In this document: one piece after another, positions 6,576 through 61,354 of the stretch
Numbering within the stretch: position 1 is the stretch's first letter
How the letters are laid out: each line of letters begins with the position of its first letter
The notes under the pieces: generated by a model
Told to the model about the DNA's origin: nothing
Database searches by the model: none
What the model saw: only the letters and a program-made list of their open reading frames with translations
Program-made: the position numbers and the translations under genes
Assembly (NCBI GenBank): GCA_965218975.1
Contig: OZ244717.1
Location: 448,001 to 512,000 of the forward strand
Reading direction: 5' to 3'
Length of the DNA stretch: 64,000 bases
Source: Candidatus Oxydemutatoraceae bacterium
GTDB taxonomy: Bacteria; Pseudomonadota; Gammaproteobacteria; Poriferisulfidales; Oxydemutatoraceae

Positions 6576-7273
6576 TGTACGATTCCACCTTAAATGGGAT
6601 TTTTGAAGGGCTTCGGGGGAAACGTTCGGCAGTAACATTCGGATCGGTGCTTTCTGTCCGTTGCCGGCATGAGAGCGGTGCAGGGTGAGACGCGCCACTG
6701 AAAACCGATCGGTTTTCAGTGGCGAACGACCCAACAAGGACGTCGGGGCTGGCGCTCATTGACAGAACCGAGTCTCGTTATGAACGACAGGCACTTTGCT
6801 AGATTGCGGCAGTACCGACACTATACACACCAGGGTCAGGCGCAGGAATGCGGCTGCGTTGCGGCTGTTACAGCGATTGGTTGCTACTGCTATTGCCATT
6901 CAGGTATAGACATCAATGGCCGTTAAGACGTAGCGGCGCACTCCGTGCTGATCACGCACAATCGTATCCAGGGCGATGCAATGCCCTGGATACTGTGCTT
7001 TGAAGTGTTTCGGCTTGCGTGCCCTGCAACGGCGCTTAAACGGTCGTTTTGTTTGTCCTTTGGCATTCAGCCGCTGCGGAATACAGCGCATTTTATCCGG
7101 CGCATCTGCGGTCAGGCGCTTTGCCGCGGTCATGCAAGGCGCTGAGCCCAGTGCGGCAATAACGTTAGCGCCAGCGGTACAAAGTGTTGCAACCGACCTT
7201 GAATGCGTTATAGAGCATCATGTTTTTGTTGAGCCATTGTGTTCATAATAGCTTCTATTTTTGAAGTGTACAT
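6576..7273 (-). mobile_element. IS481-family deletion derivative carrying one 98-bp element
   Basis: TGTACGATTCCACC end at 6576; transposase blocks ADAPDKMR...CIALDTIVR and MNTMAQQK start; element at 6683-6781. Confidence 0.85.
6683..6800 (+). repeat. 98-bp structured element (99-bp variant) plus short tail
   Basis: GGGTGAGACGCGCC...GAAAACCGATCGGTTTTC...TTGACAGAACCGAGTCTCGTTAT. Confidence 0.92.
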
Positions 7274-11167: not shown

Positions 11168-11469
11168 GGCAGCAGTAAAGTCTTTGAGCTGATGAGACTG
11201 TTTTGTGTTTGTTGCCGGATTTTCGGCGGATTGTGCCGGATTATCGGCAAAGTGCCTGTCACCCATGACGAGACTTGGTTCTGTCAATGAGCACTAGACC
11301 CGACATCCTTGTCGGGTCGTTAGCCGCTGAAAACCGATCGGTTTTCCGGGCGCGTCTCACCCTGCACCGTCCTCATGCCGGCAACGGGCAGAAAGCACCG
11401 ATCCGAATGTTACTGCCGAACGCTTCCCTCGAAGCCCTTTAAAAATCCCATTTAGGGTGGCATCGTACA
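11168..11469 (+). mobile_element. Miniature IS481 derivative: transposase fragment, tail, 98-bp element (11265-11362), IS end
   Basis: Ends in GGGTGGCATCGTACA at 11469; element ATGACGAGAC...GTCTCACCC. Confidence 0.88.
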
Positions 11470-28823: not shown

Positions 28824-28900
28824 GGGTGAGACGCGTCCGGAAACCTGTCTGCGTGCACTGCACAGGCAGGACCGATCGGTTTTCCGAGCGCGTCTCACCC
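28824..28900. repeat. Two partial 98-bp-element ends in inverted orientation (77-bp foldback)
   Basis: GGGTGAGACGCGTCCGGAAACC...ACCGATCGGTTTTCCGAGCGCGTCTCACCC. Confidence 0.85.
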
Positions 28901-29359
28901 TGACAGACGGTGGTAGCGAGTTTCAAGGACAGTTTGCACAGCTCATCCGGGAGTCACCCGGAATTGAGCAGTGGCTAACTTATCCCAAGTGTCCGAAAAT
29001 GAACGCGCACATCAAGCGTTTTAACCGTACGGTCCAGGAGGATTGTGTTGATCATGCGGAAGACCTGCTATTCACCGATACGGAAGCATTCAATGACCGG
29101 TTATGAAACCGTTTTGTGTTTGTTGCCGGATTTTCGGCAAAGTGCTTATCGTCCATGGCGAGACTTGGTTCTATGAATGAACCCCGGCCCCGACGTCCTT
29201 GTCGGGTCGTTCGCCGCTGAAAACCGATCGCTTTTCCGGGCGCGTCTCACCTTGCACCGCCCTCATGCCGGCAACGGACAGAAAGCACCGATCCGAATGT
29301 TACTGCCGAACGCTTCTCCCGAAGCGCTTCAAAAATCCCATTTAGGGTGGCATCGTACA
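28901..29359 (+). mobile_element. IS481 remnant: block TDGGSEF...NDRL, 98-bp element (29155-29252), IS end
   Basis: LTDGGSEFQGQF...KMNAHIKRFNRT; ends in GGCATCGTACA at 29359. Confidence 0.88.
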
Positions 29360-32189: not shown

Positions 32190-32912
32190 TGTACGATGCC
32201 ACCCTAAAAGGGATTTTTGAAGAGATTCTGGGGAAACGTTCGGCAGTAACATTCGGATCGGTGCTTTCTGTCCGTTGCCGGGTGAGACGCGCCCGGAAAA
32301 CCGAGCGGTTTTCAGCGGCGAACGACCCGACAAGGACGTCGGGGCTGGTGCTCATTAACAGAACCAAGTCTCGTCATGGATGACAAACACTTTGCCGAAC
32401 ATTCGCCAGCAAATACAAAATGGTTTCATCAACTCAAAGATTTTACTGCTGCCGAGATTCGAATGAGCTTGGCGCAGGGTGAGACGCGCCCGGGAAACCG
32501 ATCGGTTTTCAGCAGCGAACGACCCGACAAGGACGTCGGGGCTGGTGATCATTGACAGAACCAAGTCTCGTTATGGACGACAGGCACTTTGCTGACAATC
32601 CGCCGACGCCTTTTGCGCGGCGCTTTGGTGCGGTCATGCAATGCACTGAGTCCAATGCGGCGATAACGTCGGCGCCAGCGGTACAAAAAGTACTGCAACC
32701 GACTTTGAATGCGTTCGGGAGTTACATCCCTCCCAAAATGAGGGCGGCATATTTCTGTTGAAGCTTGAGTGCTCATGAGCCTCCATTTTTGAAGCAAAAT
32801 TGGCTCATCTAGAAACCTTTGATGCGGTGTTGTAGCCGATTTGTGCTGATATTGCATATCGGCCACCTTTTTATTGACGTCCAAGAATCCGGTATGTGTC
32901 CGGACACGTACA
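32190..32912 (-). mobile_element. IS481 derivative with two 98-bp elements (32280-32377, 32477-32574)
   Basis: TGTACGATGCC at 32190, ...ACGTACA at 32912; blocks LYRWRRRY...KAPRKRRRR and LRQAHSNLGSSKIFELMKPFC. Confidence 0.86.
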
Positions 32913-36021: not shown

Positions 36022-36098
36022 GGGCGTGTAGCTCAGTTGGTTAGAGCACCGTCTTCACATGGCGGGGGTCGCTGGTTCGAGTCCGGCCATGCCCACCA
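36022..36098 (+). tRNA. tRNA-Val (CAC)
   Basis: GGGCGTG/CATGCCC acceptor stem, TAGCTCAG D arm, loop TTCACAT, GGTTCGAGTCC, encoded CCA. Confidence 0.95.
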
Positions 36099-36216: not shown

Positions 36217-36470
36217 CTAATCAACCCCATCCACAAACGTTTCAACAAACGCTTTAATCCGGTCAATAATACGTTCTGTGATTATACGGCGCTCCTTAAT
36301 CTTCGGGCGTATATACATGATGTCAATCACGTCATCTCGCAACGGCGTCTTCTCCGTGAACAGATAATCATCAATCACTTCCCGCAACCTGTTAACGTCT
36401 AGCCCTTCATCCTCGCTTAAAGCCTGAATGGCCTTGTGCTTTTCTTCAGTCCAGTAGCCTTCAAAAGCGA
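36217..36470 (-). pseudogene. C-terminal fragment resembling type I restriction subunit HsdR
   Basis: EGLDVNRLREVIDDYLF...RPKIKERR...RIIDRIKAFVETF resembles EcoR124I-type C-termini; cut off by an IS end at 36471. Confidence 0.6.
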
Positions 36471-36568
36471 TGTATAGTGCCAGATACATATGGGACTCAC
36501 GGCACGACTCGAAAAGGTGACCGATATGCAATATCAGCATATCGGCCACCGCATCAAATGTTTCTGAG
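36471..36568 (+). mobile_element. Solo IS481 left end (about 100 bp)
   Basis: TGTATAGTGCCAGATACAT..., near reverse complement of 38770-38862. Confidence 0.8.
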
Positions 36569-37135
36569 CTTATGCACATGCTATCGGCAAGATGGGATGG
36601 ATTGACAAACTCTTTGATGCTGTCAAAGGGGGCAATGGATAACCCATCCGACAACTCGATTTCCTGATCTAGACGTAATCCACGAAAAACGGAAATATGG
36701 TAACCGGTGAACCGACGTCTTTCCTCCGGTGCCAGAAATTCTTCCAGTCTTGATGCTACATCATTGAGGTCTTTACCCTTCGTGCAACTCATTAGCCCCG
36801 CAACGATATCGGTCAAACTTACGCACGCACCCACATTTTCGATGTGAACATTAAGTTCATCTGTTTTGGACGAGGACTCCAAGACGTGTTTTAGGACAGG
36901 GTGTTCGCGCAGGACCTTTTTAACCGCATTCAATGCCAAGAAAAGAGGTCCGTAGTGAGTCCTATAGTAAAGAGACTCTTTGTTGGCACGCATTATTATA
37001 TATAGAATAACGACGGCTGGAAAAAGGGTGTACGATGCCACCCTAAATGGGATTTTTGAAGGGCTTCGGGGGAAACGTTCGGCAGTAACATTCGGATCGG
37101 TGCTTTCTGTCCGTTGTCGGCATGAGGACGGTGCA

Positions 37136-37331
37136 GGGTGAGACGCGTCCGGAAAACCGATCGGTTTTCAGCGGCGAACGACCCGACAAGGATGTCGGGG
37201 CTGGAGATCATTGACAGAACCAAGTCTCGTCATGGGTGAGACGCGCCCGGAAAACCAATTGGTTTTCAGCGGTGAACGACCCGACAAGGATGTCGGGGCT
37301 GGCGCTCATTGACAGAACCAAGTCGCGTCAT
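37136..37331 (+). repeat. Tandem array, 2 x 98 bp
   Basis: Units start at 37136 and 37234; tail to about 37404. Confidence 0.95.
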
Positions 37332-37606
37332 GGATGACAGGCACTTTGCCGACAATCCGGCACAATCCGCCGACAACACGCCAACAAACACAAAACGGTT
37401 TCATAACCGGTCATTGAATGCTTCCGTATCGGCGAATAGCAGGTCTTCCGCATGATCGATACAATCTTCTTGGACGGTGCGGTTGAAGCGCACGATGTGC
37501 GCGTTCATTTTTGGACACTTGGGATAGGTCAGCCACTGTTCAATCACGGATGATTTCCGGATGAGCCGGGCAAACTGTCCTTGAAACTCGCTCCTGCCGT
37601 CCGTCA

Positions 37607-37900
37607 GGGTGAGACGCGCCCGGAAAACCGATCGGTTTTCAGCGGCGAACAACTCGACAAGGACGTCGGGGCTGGCGCTCATTGACAGAACCAAGTCTCG
37701 TCATGGGTGAGACGCGCCCGGAAAACCAATTGGTTTTCAGCGGCGAACGATCCGACAAGGATGTCGGGGCTGGGGCTTGTTGACAGAACCCAGTCGCGTC
37801 ATGGGTGAGACGCGCCCGGAAAACCAATTGGTTTTCAGCGGTGAACGACCCGACAAGGATGTCGGGGCTGGGGCTTGTTGACAGAACCCAGTCGCGTCAT
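37607..37900 (+). repeat. Tandem array, 3 x 98 bp
   Basis: Units start at 37607, 37705, 37803; tail to about 37926. Confidence 0.95.
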
Positions 37901-38236
37901 GGATGACAGGCACTTTGCCGAAATTCTGCCAGGCGCAGGAATGCGGCTGTGTTGCGGCTGTTACAGCGGTTGGTTGCCACTGCTATTGCCATTCGGGTAT
38001 AGATATTGATGGCCGTTAAGACGTAGCGGCGCACTCCGTGCTGATAACGCACAATCGTATCCAGGGCGATACAATGCCCCCGGATACTGTGCTTTGAAGT
38101 GTTTCGGCTTGCGTGCCCTGCAACGGCGCTTAAACGGTCGTTTTGTTTGTCCTTTGGCATTCAGCCGCTGCGGAATACAGCGCATTTTATCCGGCGCATC
38201 TGCGATCAGGCGCGCAATCGTGCGGACACTCGGGCA

Positions 38237-38530
38237 GGGTGAGACGCGCCCGGAAAACCAATTGGTTTTCAGCGGCGAACGATCCGACAAGGATGTCGGG
38301 GCTGGGGCTTGTTGACAGAACCAAGTCGCGTCATGGGTGAGACGCGCCCGGAAAACCGATCGGTTTTCAGCGGCGAACGACTCGACAAGGACGTCGGGGC
38401 TGGCTCTCATTGACAGAACCAAGTCTCGTCATGGGGGAGACGCGCCCGGAAAACCAATTGGTTTTCAGCGGCGAACGACCCGACAAGGATGTCGGGGCTG
38501 GGGCTTGTTGACAGAACCAAGTCTCGTCAT
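38237..38530 (+). repeat. Tandem array, 3 x 98 bp
   Basis: Units start at 38237, 38335, 38433; tail to about 38558. Confidence 0.95.
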
Positions 38531-39144
38531 GGACGACAGGCACTTTGCTGACAATCCGCTGGCGCCTCTTACGCGGCGCTTTGCCGCGATCATGTAAGGC
38601 GCTGAGGCCAGTGTGGCGATAACGCCGACGCCAGCGGTACAAAGTACTGCGACCGATCTTGAATGCGTTCGGGAGTTACAACCCTCCCAAAATAATAGGG
38701 CATCATATTTCTGTTGAGCCGTTGTGTTCATAATAACCTCTATTTTTGAAGCAAAATTGGCTCATATAGAAACCTTTGATGCGGTGGCCGATGTACTGAT
38801 ATTGCATATCGGTTACCTTTTTGAGTCGTGCCGTGAATCCCACATGTATCTGGCACTGTACAAAGGGTCGGAAAACGTTGCTCGTCGCTTAGCGAGTTCG
38901 CCCACCCCTATTTTAATGATATCTAGCTCAGAGATGTAATCCATTTCAGTCTCTGCCAGCGAAGAAAGAGATTGAGCCAAACGTTTAACCCAATCGGATG
39001 CCGAAAAATGATGCTGTACCATAGTTAAGAACTTATCCTATTACATCTGATTGCGTCAATGTCTTAGATGTTAAGGATATGTAGTATAGCCAAGTCGCTA
39101 TCCAACAACACAGCGTGTAATATGCGACGAATCCGTACAAATTC

Positions 39145-60856: not shown

Positions 60857-61354
60857 TTAATTCCCGCATTTACCTTCGCCGCACTTACCTTCTTTATCTT
60901 TTTTCATTTCACTTCCACCGCATTTACCTTCTTTATCTTTTTTCATTTCACTTCCACCGCATTTACCTTCTTTATCTTTTTTCATTTCACTTCCACCGCA
61001 TTTACCTTCGCCGCACTTACCTTCTTTATCTTTTTTCATTTCACTTCCACCGCATTTACCTTCGCCGCACTTACCTTCTTTATCTTTTTTCATTTCACTT
61101 CCACCGCATTTACCTTCGCCGCACTTGCCTTCTTTATCTTTTTTCATTTCACTTCCACCGCATTTACCTTCGCCGCATTTACCTTCCATGCTTTTCTTCA
61201 TTGAATGGTTGTCGGCCAATTGCATATAACCGGAAGAGAGCTCTTGCATTTCAAAAGGGGATTGTTCGGCATTCATATTCGCGGATAATGTTCCCGCAAT
61301 CACAGTTGAAACAATGGCGACAGACGCCTTGAGTTTAAATTTTTTGTGCTCCAT
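60857..61354 (-). CDS. EGKCG-repeat exported protein (HvfA-like RiPP precursor)
   Basis: Signal peptide, SPFEMQELSSGYM, 12 EGKCG motifs. Confidence 0.85.
   Translation of the reverse strand: MEHKKFKLKASVAIVSTVIAGTLSANMNAEQSPFEMQELSSGYMQLADNHSMKKSMEGKCGEGKCGGSEMKKDKEGKCGEGKCGGSEMKKDKEGKCGEGKCGGSEMKKDKEGKCGEGKCGGSEMKKDKEGKCGGSEMKKDKEGKCGGSEMKKDKEGKCGEGKCGN
60862..61190. repeat. Coding tandem repeat of 54-bp and 39-bp units
   Basis: Near-identical units encoding MKKDKEGKCG(EGKCG)GSE. Confidence 0.92.

What the first reader, a model, noticed from the sequence alone, without database searches (positions are those of the whole stretch)
37131..38560. Polar junctions: one fixed end at CCTG, one ragged end with microhomology and target loss
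In transposase sense the element ends ...GCGTCTCAC-CCTG at the A2 (CCTGCGCC), B (CCTGCCCG), C (CCTGAC) and D (CCTGCACC; CTTG at 29251) sites. The other end is a shared tail (...GGCAAAGTGCCTGTCATCC) of roughly 20-60 bp, truncated at different points and joined through short homologies such as GCGGATTG. Two known mechanisms give this pattern. IS91-type rolling-circle insertion fixes the ori end beside a tetranucleotide (CTTG/GTTC for IS91) and gives variable ends and tandem multimers. Target-primed reverse transcription could pair a target ending CAGG with an RNA ending CCC and give 5' truncation.
Basis: partly seen in the sequence, partly recalled or inferred. Interest (0 to 1): 0.85.

Follow-up and report, generated by a model that had tools for sequence, protein, structure and literature searches.

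The report
Polar 98-nt repeat colonising IS481 copies
A small self-folding 98-base repeat found only in this bacterium sits in tandem arrays inside the transposase gene of an IS481-type insertion sequence, always with one exact end and one variable end, and nothing in the genome looks able to move it.

Summary
Window 37029-38862 is one IS481-family insertion sequence, with its transposase on the minus strand. The gene is cut at three places by arrays of 2, 3 and 3 copies of a 98-nt unit, each followed by a shared tail of 71, 21 or 29 nt.

Genome-wide there are about 330 units in about 200 arrays, 2% of a 2.08 Mb genome. 93 of 99 unit-bearing loci lie in copies of this IS family.

The 5' end (GGGTGAGAC) is exact in 180 of 201 arrays. 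It abuts CA in 12 of 27 flank classes, and by my reading the unoccupied target starts with GG at 10 of 13 sites.

The 3' side ends at nested positions, several of them also ending in CA, or is shortened across 5-6 nt homologies. Target DNA is lost at the three window sites. One insertion elsewhere is clean, with no loss, no target duplication and no terminal inverted repeats.

Most copies spread with the IS and by recombination, so only about 20 sites look independent.

The junction pattern resembles one-ended rolling-circle (IS91/IS801-type) copying. However, this complete genome has no Y2, Y1, Rep or relaxase HUH gene and no reverse transcriptase. The mechanism is therefore inferred, not shown. 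The unit was not found in 40 relatives.

The parts
37029..38862 (-). One copy of an IS481-family insertion sequence (about 1.05 kb without inserts). Imperfect terminal inverted repeats TGTAC..TGCCA..TGGGATT. The transposase gene is broken by three arrays.
   Evidence: Homology to other copies stops at these coordinates. The uninterrupted middle part of a sister copy matches NF033577 IS481 family transposase at E 6.6e-21 (75 bits, below the curated cut-off because it is partial) and Pfam rve at E 3.3e-5.
37029..37135 (-). IS segment S0: right inverted repeat and C-terminal codons of the transposase, ending ...GGTGCA at the insertion point.
   Evidence: About 98 copies genome-wide. Empty copies continue with 22 nt that are missing here.
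37136..37331 (+). Array 1: two 98-nt units (first GATC-type, second AATT-type).
37332..37402 (+). Full-length tail (71 nt) ending ...AACACAAAACGGTTTC. The last C is shared with the IS.
37403..37606 (-). IS segment S1 (transposase catalytic C-terminal part), ending ...CCGTCA at the second insertion point.
37607..37900 (+). Array 2: three 98-nt units.
37901..37937 (+). Truncated tail (21 nt, 37901-37921) joined across GCCGA to the last 16 nt of module M (...AATTCTGCCAGGCGCA).
37938..38236 (-). IS segment S2 (transposase middle part), ending ...CTCGGGCA at the third insertion point.
38237..38530 (+). Array 3: three 98-nt units.
38531..38559 (+). Truncated tail (29 nt) joined to the IS across ATCCGC.
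38560..38862 (-). IS segment S3: transposase N-terminus (helix-turn-helix region), 5' leader and left inverted repeat.
32280..32595 (+). A second, internally deleted IS copy. One unit plus tail sits at a shifted left junction (...GTTGCC|GGG). Module M follows, then a second unit plus tail at ...GGCGCA|GGG.
28824..29252 (.). Two unit heads joined head to head (28824-28900), and a single unit plus tail on the minus strand (29132-29252).
11244..11362 (-). Single unit plus tail in another IS copy.
6683..6799 (+). Single unit plus short tail in another IS copy.

Best explanation
The arrays are copies of a lineage-specific, non-autonomous insertion element. It consists of one or more 98-nt units, then a tail of about 71 nt, and sometimes a further 21-50 nt module. 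The unit has a closing stem, a perfect 20-nt palindrome and a second hairpin.

The element entered an IS481-family insertion sequence at a few sites. It then multiplied mainly as a passenger of that IS, and by recombination and gene conversion among the roughly 95 IS copies.

The roughly 20 independent insertions are polar. The element's 5' end (GGGTGAGAC) is exact and is joined preferentially at CA|GG(G). The 3' side stops at one of several nested ends (...TTTGCC, ...CACAAAA(C), ...GGTTTCA, ...GGCGCA, ...TTATGCA), or has been shortened later across short homologies, often with loss of target DNA. There are no terminal inverted repeats and no target duplication.

I take this to be one-ended, single-strand copying of the IS91/IS801 rolling-circle kind. 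Copying would start at a fixed nick (CA|GGG), run through units, tail and flanking DNA, and end at secondary CA sites. The left junction re-creates the preferred target, which would explain tandem growth.

What is shown: the anatomy, the junction statistics, the one clean insertion, the spread with the IS and the lack of any candidate enzyme.
What is inferred: the nick, the single-stranded intermediate and the trans-acting enzyme, which must be lost or extrachromosomal.
For: - Abundance and location: 325 blastn hits in 197 arrays. By the token map there are 331 units, 41 kb or 2.0% of the genome, and 93 of 99 unit-bearing loci carry IS tokens.
- Exact 5' end: intact in 180 of 201 arrays.
- Left flank: 12 of 27 flank classes end in CA against a genome frequency of 0.064 (binomial p 3.5e-8).
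- Target start: by my inspection and the S0 sequence, the unoccupied target begins with GG at 10 of 13 sites where it can be read.
- Clean insertion in a divergent IS relative: the empty site reads ...ATCGGCA|GGGAGGG, and the filled site reads ...ATCGGCA|GGGTGAG..units..tail..CACAAAA|GGGAGGG.
- Defined far ends...GGTTTC is followed by about 6 unrelated contexts in 118 arrays. ...GGCGCA is followed by 3-4 contexts in 51 arrays. ...TTATGCA is followed by 3 contexts in 3 arrays.
- Module M travels with the element to other sites and forms higher-order tandems of period 197 or 316 nt.
- New left junctions at 6 or more positions of IS segment S0 all keep the unit's first base.
- Published parallel: one-ended IS801 fragments share the same ori end and stop at tetranucleotides like the target (PMC3189936, passages read).
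Against: - No enzyme candidate. There are no matches to Y2_Tnp, Zn_Tnp_IS91, Y1_Tnp, Rep_trans, Relaxase or TrwC in a one-contig genome that is 99.4% complete. The Y2_Tnp search was validated on the class. The Zn_Tnp_IS91 search rang in none of the 14 control genomes, so it is weak evidence.
- Many far ends do not end in CA: ...TTTGCC, ...ATCCGC, ...CACAAAA.
- 15 of 27 left flank classes do not end in CA.
- Target loss and microhomology are not typical of IS91 insertion.
- Adjacent units often belong to different subtypes, which a single rolling-circle pass would not give.
- The GG(G) overlap between target and element head fits an annealing step better than a nick guided by the upstream flank.
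- No similarity of the ends to the one IS91-family element I examined, from a distant relative.
- Independence of sites is limited, because many classes are variants of one another.
Confidence: 0.35

Rival explanations
1. No dedicated transposition machinery. A structure-prone repeat arose once or a few times inside the IS. It then spread by IS transposition, by homologous recombination or gene conversion among IS copies, and by replication template switching at short homologies. The folded unit would stall replication at its base and so fix one end.
For: - 93 of 99 loci lie in the IS family.
- Units in the same array or locus are closer to each other (5.3 and 5.7 differences) than to units elsewhere (8.3). 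Nearest neighbours are 9-17 times enriched locally.
- Nearest neighbours in other loci are not enriched for the same IS site: A 0.34 against 0.32 expected, B 0.11 against 0.15, C 0.08 against 0.06, D 0.21 against 0.16. This points to much exchange among arrays.
- Deletions across ATCCGC, GCCGA, AGCGGC and a 12-nt GGC(A/G)CTTTGCCG homology are seen.
- GG(G) overlap at most left junctions.
- No enzyme candidate.
Against: - The unit contains several other GG/GGGG runs, yet new left junctions use only its first three bases.
- About 7 insertions lie in unrelated DNA. One is a perfectly clean insertion with no loss or gain, which slippage does not readily give.
- Far ends such as ...GGTTTC recur in about 6 unrelated contexts.
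Confidence: 0.3
2. A SINE-like retroposon. A small RNA starts at GGGUGAG. It is one unit long, or longer by read-through into the tail and flank. It is reverse transcribed from a primer annealed by microhomology in its 3' part. The cDNA runs to the RNA's 5' end, and its ...CCC 3' end anneals to GGG at the target. End-to-end template jumping gives tandem units.
For: - Exact 5' end with a variable 3' end, short homologies and target deletions.
- GG(G) at the target side of 10 of 13 readable sites (my inspection).
- Mixed subtypes in neighbouring units.
- The unit folds as a closed three-hairpin structure on either strand, z -3.4 to -3.9.
Against: - No RVT_1 match in the genome, while the control search rang in 3 of 14 genomes.
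- No Rfam family matches the unit, even at E up to 1.
- No promoter-like site lies inside the arrays, and the upstream flanks differ.
- No compensatory changes beyond the shifted controls.
- No RNA data.
Confidence: 0.15
3. A DDE-type miniature element with TG...CA termini (TGAGAC...GCGCA or ...GTCA), inserted with a 3-bp GGG target duplication by an rve-type (IS481/IS3-like) transposase.
For: - If the element is taken to start at TGAGAC, it begins TG.
- Several of its ends are CA.
- The clean insertion is flanked by GGG on both sides.
- rve-type transposase genes are the most abundant in this genome.
Against: - There are no real terminal inverted repeats, only a 6-bp subterminal stem.
- The clean insertion ends ...CACAAAA, not CA.
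- The ends are unlike the IS481 inverted repeats.
- No longer element shares the head.
- No rve match lies in an open frame longer than 246 aa.
- Insertion is orientation-specific and usually removes target DNA.
Confidence: 0.08
4. Site-specific recombination of a circular form (junction ...CAAAAC|GGGTGAG or ...GGCGCA|GGGTGAG) with A|GGG-like target cores, carried out by a host tyrosine recombinase.
For: - Tandem junctions of full elements exist: 9-11 arrays follow ...CAAAAC.
- The clean insertion shares GGG at both junctions.
- Six Phage_integrase matches in the genome.
Against: - Two of the recombinase matches have full-length open frames. I take these to be XerC/XerD but did not test it. 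Two others look like N-terminally truncated phage-type integrases (my reading, not tested by a family search).
- Most insertions lose target DNA and have variable ends, which conservative recombination does not give.
- No Resolvase and no IS110-type enzyme.
Confidence: 0.05

Closest known systems
One-ended transposition products of IS91-family elements (IS801 'miniature sequences'; PMC3189936, passages read)
   Same: - One end is always the same and lies next to a short preferred flank.
- The other end varies and lies at short sequences like the target.
- Neighbouring DNA can be carried along.
- There are no inverted repeats and no target duplication.
- Fragments sit inside other insertion sequences.
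   Different: - No IS91-type (Y2 HUH) transposase in the genome, and no longer parent element carrying the same head.
- The preferred flank is only a dinucleotide (CA) plus GG on the target side.
- Target loss is frequent.
- The unit is a 98-nt self-folding module in tandem arrays, not a fragment of a transposase-bearing IS.
IS200/IS605-derived non-autonomous elements and REP/REPIN-RAYT systems (recalled; only the abstract of PMC3733652 on GTAG/CGTC-tagged REPs was seen, in the listing)
   Same: - Hairpin-rich small repeats without inverted-repeat ends or target duplications.
- Insertion next to a short conserved flank.
- Occurrence in clusters.
   Different: - No Y1 transposase or RAYT.
- The unit is larger than a REP.
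- Head-to-tail arrays with a common tail.
- Variable 3' ends and target loss.
- Almost exclusive residence inside one IS family.
Bacterial MITEs and mosaic intergenic repeats such as Correia elements, NIMEs, ERIC and RPEs (recalled, not tested)
   Same: - Abundant, short, structured, lineage-specific, non-coding repeats that can interrupt genes.
   Different: - No terminal inverted repeats and no target duplication.
- Polar junctions.
- Tandem growth.
- 94% of loci lie inside IS481-family copies rather than between genes.
SINEs and endonuclease-independent LINE-1 insertions of eukaryotes (recalled)
   Same: - A small structured unit without coding capacity.
- Insertions with microhomology, truncation at one end and target deletions.
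   Different: - No reverse transcriptase in the genome.
- The truncated end would be the RNA's 3' end, not its 5' end.
- No A-rich tail.

Membership tests
IS91/ISCR rolling-circle transposons (and their one-ended derivatives) | A Y2 HUH transposase available in the cell | tested here: not met
   PF04986 gave 0 matches in the genome. The same search matched 38 of the 200 other genomes of the class searched, 37 of them over the cut-off; this tally includes the unpublished G079 and G180. PF14319 gave 0 matches, but that search rang in no control genome.
IS91/ISCR rolling-circle transposons (and their one-ended derivatives) | A constant origin end placed next to a conserved short target sequence | tested here: met
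   The head is intact in 180 of 201 arrays. 12 of 27 flank classes end in CA, p 3.5e-8. The motif is weaker than a tetranucleotide.
IS91/ISCR rolling-circle transposons (and their one-ended derivatives) | A variable far end at sequences like the target, with capture of adjacent DNA | tested here: inconclusive
   The ends ...GGTTTCA...GGCGCA and ...TTATGCA each occur in 3 or more contexts, and modules M and N are carried along. Other ends (...TTTGCC...ATCCGC...CACAAAA) do not fit.
IS91/ISCR rolling-circle transposons (and their one-ended derivatives) | Sequence likeness of the ends to IS91-family ori/ter ends | tested here: inconclusive
   I looked at one family member, from a distant AT-rich relative (G181, 4 copies), and saw no likeness. 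There was no systematic comparison.
IS200/IS605-type elements, REP/RAYT | A Y1 HUH transposase or RAYT in the genome | tested here: not met
   PF01797 gave 0 matches; the control rang in 6 of 14 genomes.
IS200/IS605-type elements, REP/RAYT | Precise insertion 3' of a fixed tetra- or pentanucleotide with no change to the target | tested here: inconclusive
   One clean case. Sites A, B and C lose 22, 46 and about 80-120 nt.
Target-primed retroelements (SINE-like) | A reverse transcriptase available in the cell | tested here: not met
   PF00078 gave 0 matches; the control rang in 3 of 14 genomes.
Target-primed retroelements (SINE-like) | A transcript with defined ends that matches the unit | not testable with these tools
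   No run recorded as RNA was listed, and only assembled contigs were available.
MITE (DDE transposon derivative) | Terminal inverted repeats and a target-site duplication | tested here: not met
   There is only a 6-bp subterminal stem. The clean insertion has at most an ambiguous GGG.
MITE (DDE transposon derivative) | A parent IS with the same ends | tested here: not met
   The 9-mer from the unit head occurs only 8 times outside units, and none of these starts a longer element. The ends of the one other IS family I could delimit differ; the boundaries of four further repeat families were not resolved.
IS110/IS1111, serine-recombinase IS, TnpB-bearing IS | The family's enzyme in the genome | tested here: not met
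   PF01548, PF00239 and PF07282 each gave 0 matches, with positive controls.
IS481 family (the host element, not the repeat) | An rve-type DDE transposase matching the IS481 model, with terminal inverted repeats | tested here: met
   NF033577 at E 6.6e-21 on a 180-aa uninterrupted part, and rve at E 3.3e-5. Inverted repeats at 37029 and 38862. No copy has an open frame over 246 aa across the rve match.

The most novel reading that the evidence does not exclude
The repeat is a parasite of a parasite. It would be a structured element without an enzyme that specialises on IS481-family DNA: about 13 of about 20 independent sites lie in three subfamilies of that IS, although the IS makes up only 2-3% of the genome. 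It would enter during the IS's own replicative (copy-out) transposition, by a polar single-strand copy-in step that anneals its GGG head to the target. In doing so it has knocked out the transposase in essentially every copy.
Probability: 0.12. Interest if true: 0.85.

Novelty: new variant of a known kind. Interest (0 to 1): 0.55.

Why it matters
If the polar junctions reflect a real insertion mechanism, this is a bacterial non-autonomous element that behaves like a one-ended rolling-circle or copy-in element without any recognisable enzyme in its host. It has chosen another mobile element as its home and inactivated the transposase in roughly 95 copies.

That makes two questions testable: how small structured repeats move without their own enzyme, and whether such repeats can curb insertion-sequence expansions in shrinking genomes.

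If it is only recombination debris, it is still a clear example of how tandem structured repeats reshape an IS family.

Tried and rejected
- RNA families. The Rfam search of the window at gathering thresholds found only a tRNA at 36022-36095. At E up to 1 on 37000-38900 it found nothing.
- Exact head 23-mer in genome contigs. Three single hits in Rhizobium and Rhodobacter records, taken as chance.
- Metagenome and viral contigs. 0 hits for the head. One hit for a degenerate hairpin pattern, which lies inside a protein-coding stretch and is a chance match. My guess that the gene is a dihydroxy-acid dehydratase is from recall and was not tested.
- Public runs. 12 runs from 7 studies hold parts of the stretch, and none is recorded as RNA. 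All are kept as assembled contigs. Laying 4 of the 12 runs (X1, X5, X6, X8) showed only the multi-copy variants already seen in the genome, including the empty form of site A. It gave no information on circles, ends or activity.
- Tree of IS segment S1 (30 rows, 205 columns). 19 of 27 inner branches were unsupported. Empty copies (2 at site A, 3 at site B) were no more clustered than in shuffles. The tree cannot tell one insertion from many.
- Module M against the IS interval it replaces, and tail end plus M against all IS parts. No significant likeness: 177 of 2000, 219 of 2000 and 429 of 500 shuffles scored as well.
- Covariation. 86% of cells pair, against 32-57% in shifted controls. Compensatory changes (10 cells in 8 of 32 pairs) do not exceed the shifted controls, and six pairs of the third hairpin and closing stem are broken in most units. 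Only the central AATT/GATC switch keeps the 20-nt palindrome perfect.
- Age polarity within arrays. Nearest-neighbour distances of first and last units do not differ clearly (1.77 against 1.32, p 0.058).
- Locus at genome 149-154 kb, between two inverted arrays. It has ORFs that look like a nucleotidyltransferase/HEPN pair and an HNH protein (my reading, not tested). I saw no mobilising enzyme.
- DNA-uptake-sequence motifs were counted in order to place the organism. None is abundant.
- IS91-family element of a distant relative. Its ends are unlike the unit.
- Supplementary files of papers were not consulted.
Full report
**What is at the coordinates.**
Window 37131-38560 lies inside one copy of an insertion sequence spanning 37029-38862. 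Homology to the other copies stops at those two points. The ends are imperfect inverted repeats, TGTAC..TGCCA..TGGGATT.

The coding pieces on the minus strand are those of a DDE transposase..STLYRWRRRYRHTGLSALHDRGKAPRKRRQR....HCIALDTIVRYQHG....SEFQGQF..PKMNAHIVRFNRTVQE... A 180-aa uninterrupted stretch from a sister copy matches the NCBIfam IS481 family model at E 6.6e-21. The score of 75 bits is below the curated cut-off because the stretch is partial. It also matches Pfam rve at E 3.3e-5.

The gene is cut three times by arrays of a 98-nt unit lying on the plus strand, that is, antisense to the transposase:
- 37136-37331: 2 units
- 37607-37900: 3 units
- 38237-38530: 3 units

Each array is followed by the same tail, GGAYGACAGGCACTTTGCC..., of 71, 21 and 29 nt.

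**The observation.**
On the transposase strand the repeat ends ...GCGTCTCACCC|TG at all three sites, at 32477, and with one substitution at 29252.

- The first tail is complete (...AACACAAAACGGTTTC).
- The second is cut after 21 nt and joined across GCCGA to the last 16 nt of a further module, which I call M.

Target loss is real at all three sites:
- Site A (37136). Empty copies at four other loci read GGTGCAG-CTTATACCAGGCTAAATACTCC-CATAACCGG. Filled copies lack those 22 nt.
- Site B (37607). Three copies keep a 46-nt interval that completes the frame ..LAVLPPPVKYIL|TDGGSEF. The window copy lacks it.
- Site C (38237). In the token map I found no copy of the main IS with the interval intact. 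A divergent relative of the IS has about 26 codons there, between ..IREIRRLR and PSATTIGRLISD. A loss of about 80-120 nt is therefore inferred, not seen.

**Genome-wide picture.**
The genome is one contig of 2.081 Mb with 47.7% G+C. Its marker-gene completeness is 99.4%.

One unit plus the start of the tail gives 325 blastn hits in 197 arrays: 112 single, 58 double, 20 triple, and 7 arrays of four to seven units. Unit 12-mers are the most frequent 12-mers in the genome.

I tiled the genome with tokens for the IS segments (S0-S3), the unit (U), the tail (T) and module M. This gave 143 loci, and the typical order is S0 U.. T S1 U.. T M S2 U.. T S3.
- Units, tails and M cover 41 kb (2.0%). IS tokens cover 49 kb.
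- 93 of 99 loci with units also carry IS tokens.
- No rve match lies in an open frame longer than 246 aa, so I found no intact transposase of this family.

The unit was not found:
- in 40 relatives of the same family and order (0 of 40);
- beyond 3 chance single hits in one genome per species of GTDB;
- in JGI metagenome or IMG/VR contigs.

Contigs of public runs from 7 studies do hold parts of the stretch.

**The unit.**
On either strand, as RNA or DNA, the unit folds into a closing stem (GACGCG/CGCGTC) with three hairpins, z -3.4 to -3.9.

I checked the fold across 180 distinct 98-nt units.
- The closing stem, the first hairpin (a perfect 20-nt palindrome) and the second hairpin hold up.
- The third hairpin is broken in most units.
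- Compensatory changes do not exceed the shifted controls.
- The two main subtypes differ at the centre of the palindrome, CCAATTGG against CCGATCGG. That change keeps the dyad perfect at a place where a hairpin loop could not pair.

No Rfam family matches the unit.

**How independent are the junctions?**
Most are not independent. The left flanks fall into 27 classes. The big ones are the same IS sites seen in many IS copies: A 58, B 28, the M|U junction 22+7, C 15, and a shifted form of A 12.

All four combinations of filled and empty at sites A and B exist. A tree of the 205-nt segment between them is too poorly resolved to say whether each site was hit once or several times.

Units are more alike within an array or locus than between loci: 5.3 and 5.7 differences against 8.3. 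A unit's nearest relative in another locus is no more likely than chance to sit at the same IS site. So arrays exchange sequence freely, or were filled repeatedly.

Higher-order tandems [units-tail-M] with periods of 197 and 316 nt, and many IS copies lacking S1 or S2, show frequent recombination between arrays.

**What the independent junctions say.**
By my reading, about 20 sites look independent. About 13 of them lie in three subfamilies of the IS481-like element.

The 5' end:
- The head is intact in 180 of 201 arrays.
- 12 of 27 flank classes end in CA, against a genome frequency of 0.064 (p 3.5e-8).
- Where an unoccupied version can be read, the target begins with GG at 10 of 13 sites. 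This is my inspection and of the S0 sequence.
- Six or more different positions of IS segment S0 are joined to exactly the first base of the unit, although the unit has several internal GG or GGGG runs.

One insertion, in a divergent IS relative and in the opposite orientation to its transposase, is perfectly clean. The empty site reads ...ATCGGCA|GGGAGGGTTGAGC. The filled site reads ...ATCGGCA|GGGTGAG..units..tail..CACAAAA|GGGAGGGTTGAGC. There is no loss, no duplication beyond an ambiguous GGG, and there are no inverted repeats.

The 3' side stops at nested positions:
- ...TTTGCC: two contexts
- ...CACAAAA(C): the clean site and 9-11 head-to-tail junctions
- ...GGTTTC(A): 118 arrays, about six unrelated contexts
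- ...GGCGCA at the end of M: 51 arrays, 3-4 contexts
- ...TTATGCA at the end of another module: 3 arrays, 3 contexts

A 107-nt unit variant carries the first bases of the tail plus GCA before the next head.

First units of arrays are mostly of the GATC subtype (42 of 60). Last units are mostly of the AATT subtype (36 of 60). The arrays are related, so the p of 2.7e-8 overstates this.

**Mechanism.**
The pattern has these elements:
- an exact head placed at CA|GG(G);
- nested far ends, several at CA;
- downstream DNA carried along;
- tandem growth at a junction that re-creates the target;
- no inverted repeats and no duplication.

The closest match is one-ended rolling-circle transposition, as shown for IS801. 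Its fragments share the origin end and stop at tetranucleotides like the target (PMC3189936, passages read).

The enzyme is missing, however.
- HUH families with no match: Y2_Tnp, Zn_Tnp_IS91, Y1_Tnp, Rep_trans, Relaxase and TrwC.
- The Y2_Tnp search found matches in 38 of the 200 other genomes of the class searched, 37 of them over the cut-off, so it works. That tally includes the unpublished genomes G079 and G180.
- Also no match: reverse transcriptase, IS110-type enzyme, resolvase and TnpB.
- Tyrosine recombinases: two matches have full-length open frames, which I take to be XerC/XerD without testing. There are also truncated phage-type integrases.
- Other IS families exist. One is a 1.9-kb element with about 16-18 copies, whose ends are unlike the unit head.
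- No longer element carries the unit head.

I therefore give the rolling-circle-like reading 0.35. The other readings are:
- enzyme-free spread by template switching and recombination: 0.30
- a SINE-like cDNA route, which explains the GGG overlap and the mixed neighbouring units well but lacks a reverse transcriptase: 0.15
- a DDE-type reading: 0.08
- a recombinase reading: 0.05

**Verdict.**

The junction logic is IS91-like, but a defining feature, the transposase, was tested and not met. I therefore do not file the element as a member of that family.

It is a lineage-specific, non-autonomous, polar repeat that lives almost only inside IS481-family copies. It is a new variant of the known kind of small structured bacterial repeats, and its mechanism is open.

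Noticed in passing
window 36217-37041 (-) and 38770-38862 (+): The left-end region of the IS carries, on the strand opposite to the transposase, an open frame ..ETFDAVADVLILHIGYLFESCRESHMYLALY... The 274-aa ORF just left of this IS copy contains the same peptide. About 60 copies of that IS-end stretch exist, so annotated proteins here may be IS-end chimeras.
   Followed up: partly
window 28824-28900: Two unit heads joined head to head, with a 26-nt palindromic insert (CTGTCTGCGTGCACTGCACAGGCAGG) in the first hairpin. The same insert variant occurs at genome 405.4 kb, 416.8 kb and 1706.1 kb.
   Followed up: partly
window 60864-61188: A separate tandem-repeat region with periods of 15, 39, 54 and 93 nt (CCGCAYTTACCTTC...). 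It is unrelated to the 98-nt unit.
   Followed up: no
window 36022-36095 (+): A tRNA gene (Rfam, 63.9 bits) about 930 nt left of the IS copy.
   Followed up: no
genome C1:149159-153848 (L014): Two inverted arrays of a divergent unit subtype flank about 3.1 kb. The ORFs there look like a nucleotidyltransferase/HEPN-type pair, an HNH protein and a 244-aa protein. One ORF starts with the IS transposase's N-terminal peptide.
   Followed up: partly
genome C1:928220-986875 (+): A stop-free frame of 19,552 codons with internally repeated segments. Other ORFs group with it as a family of 14.
   Followed up: no
genome C1:880-2797 and 15-17 further copies: A second insertion sequence of about 1.9 kb with a 575-aa ORF and inverted repeats TCTTGACTTCGTAGGTTTTG. 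One of its copies carries a unit at ...GGTGCA|GGG, where empty copies read ...TTTGCA|GGGAAGC.
   Followed up: partly
genome C1:1034722-1035736: A 302-nt tandem repeat in which every copy holds a 3'-truncated unit (positions 1-69 or 1-79).
   Followed up: no
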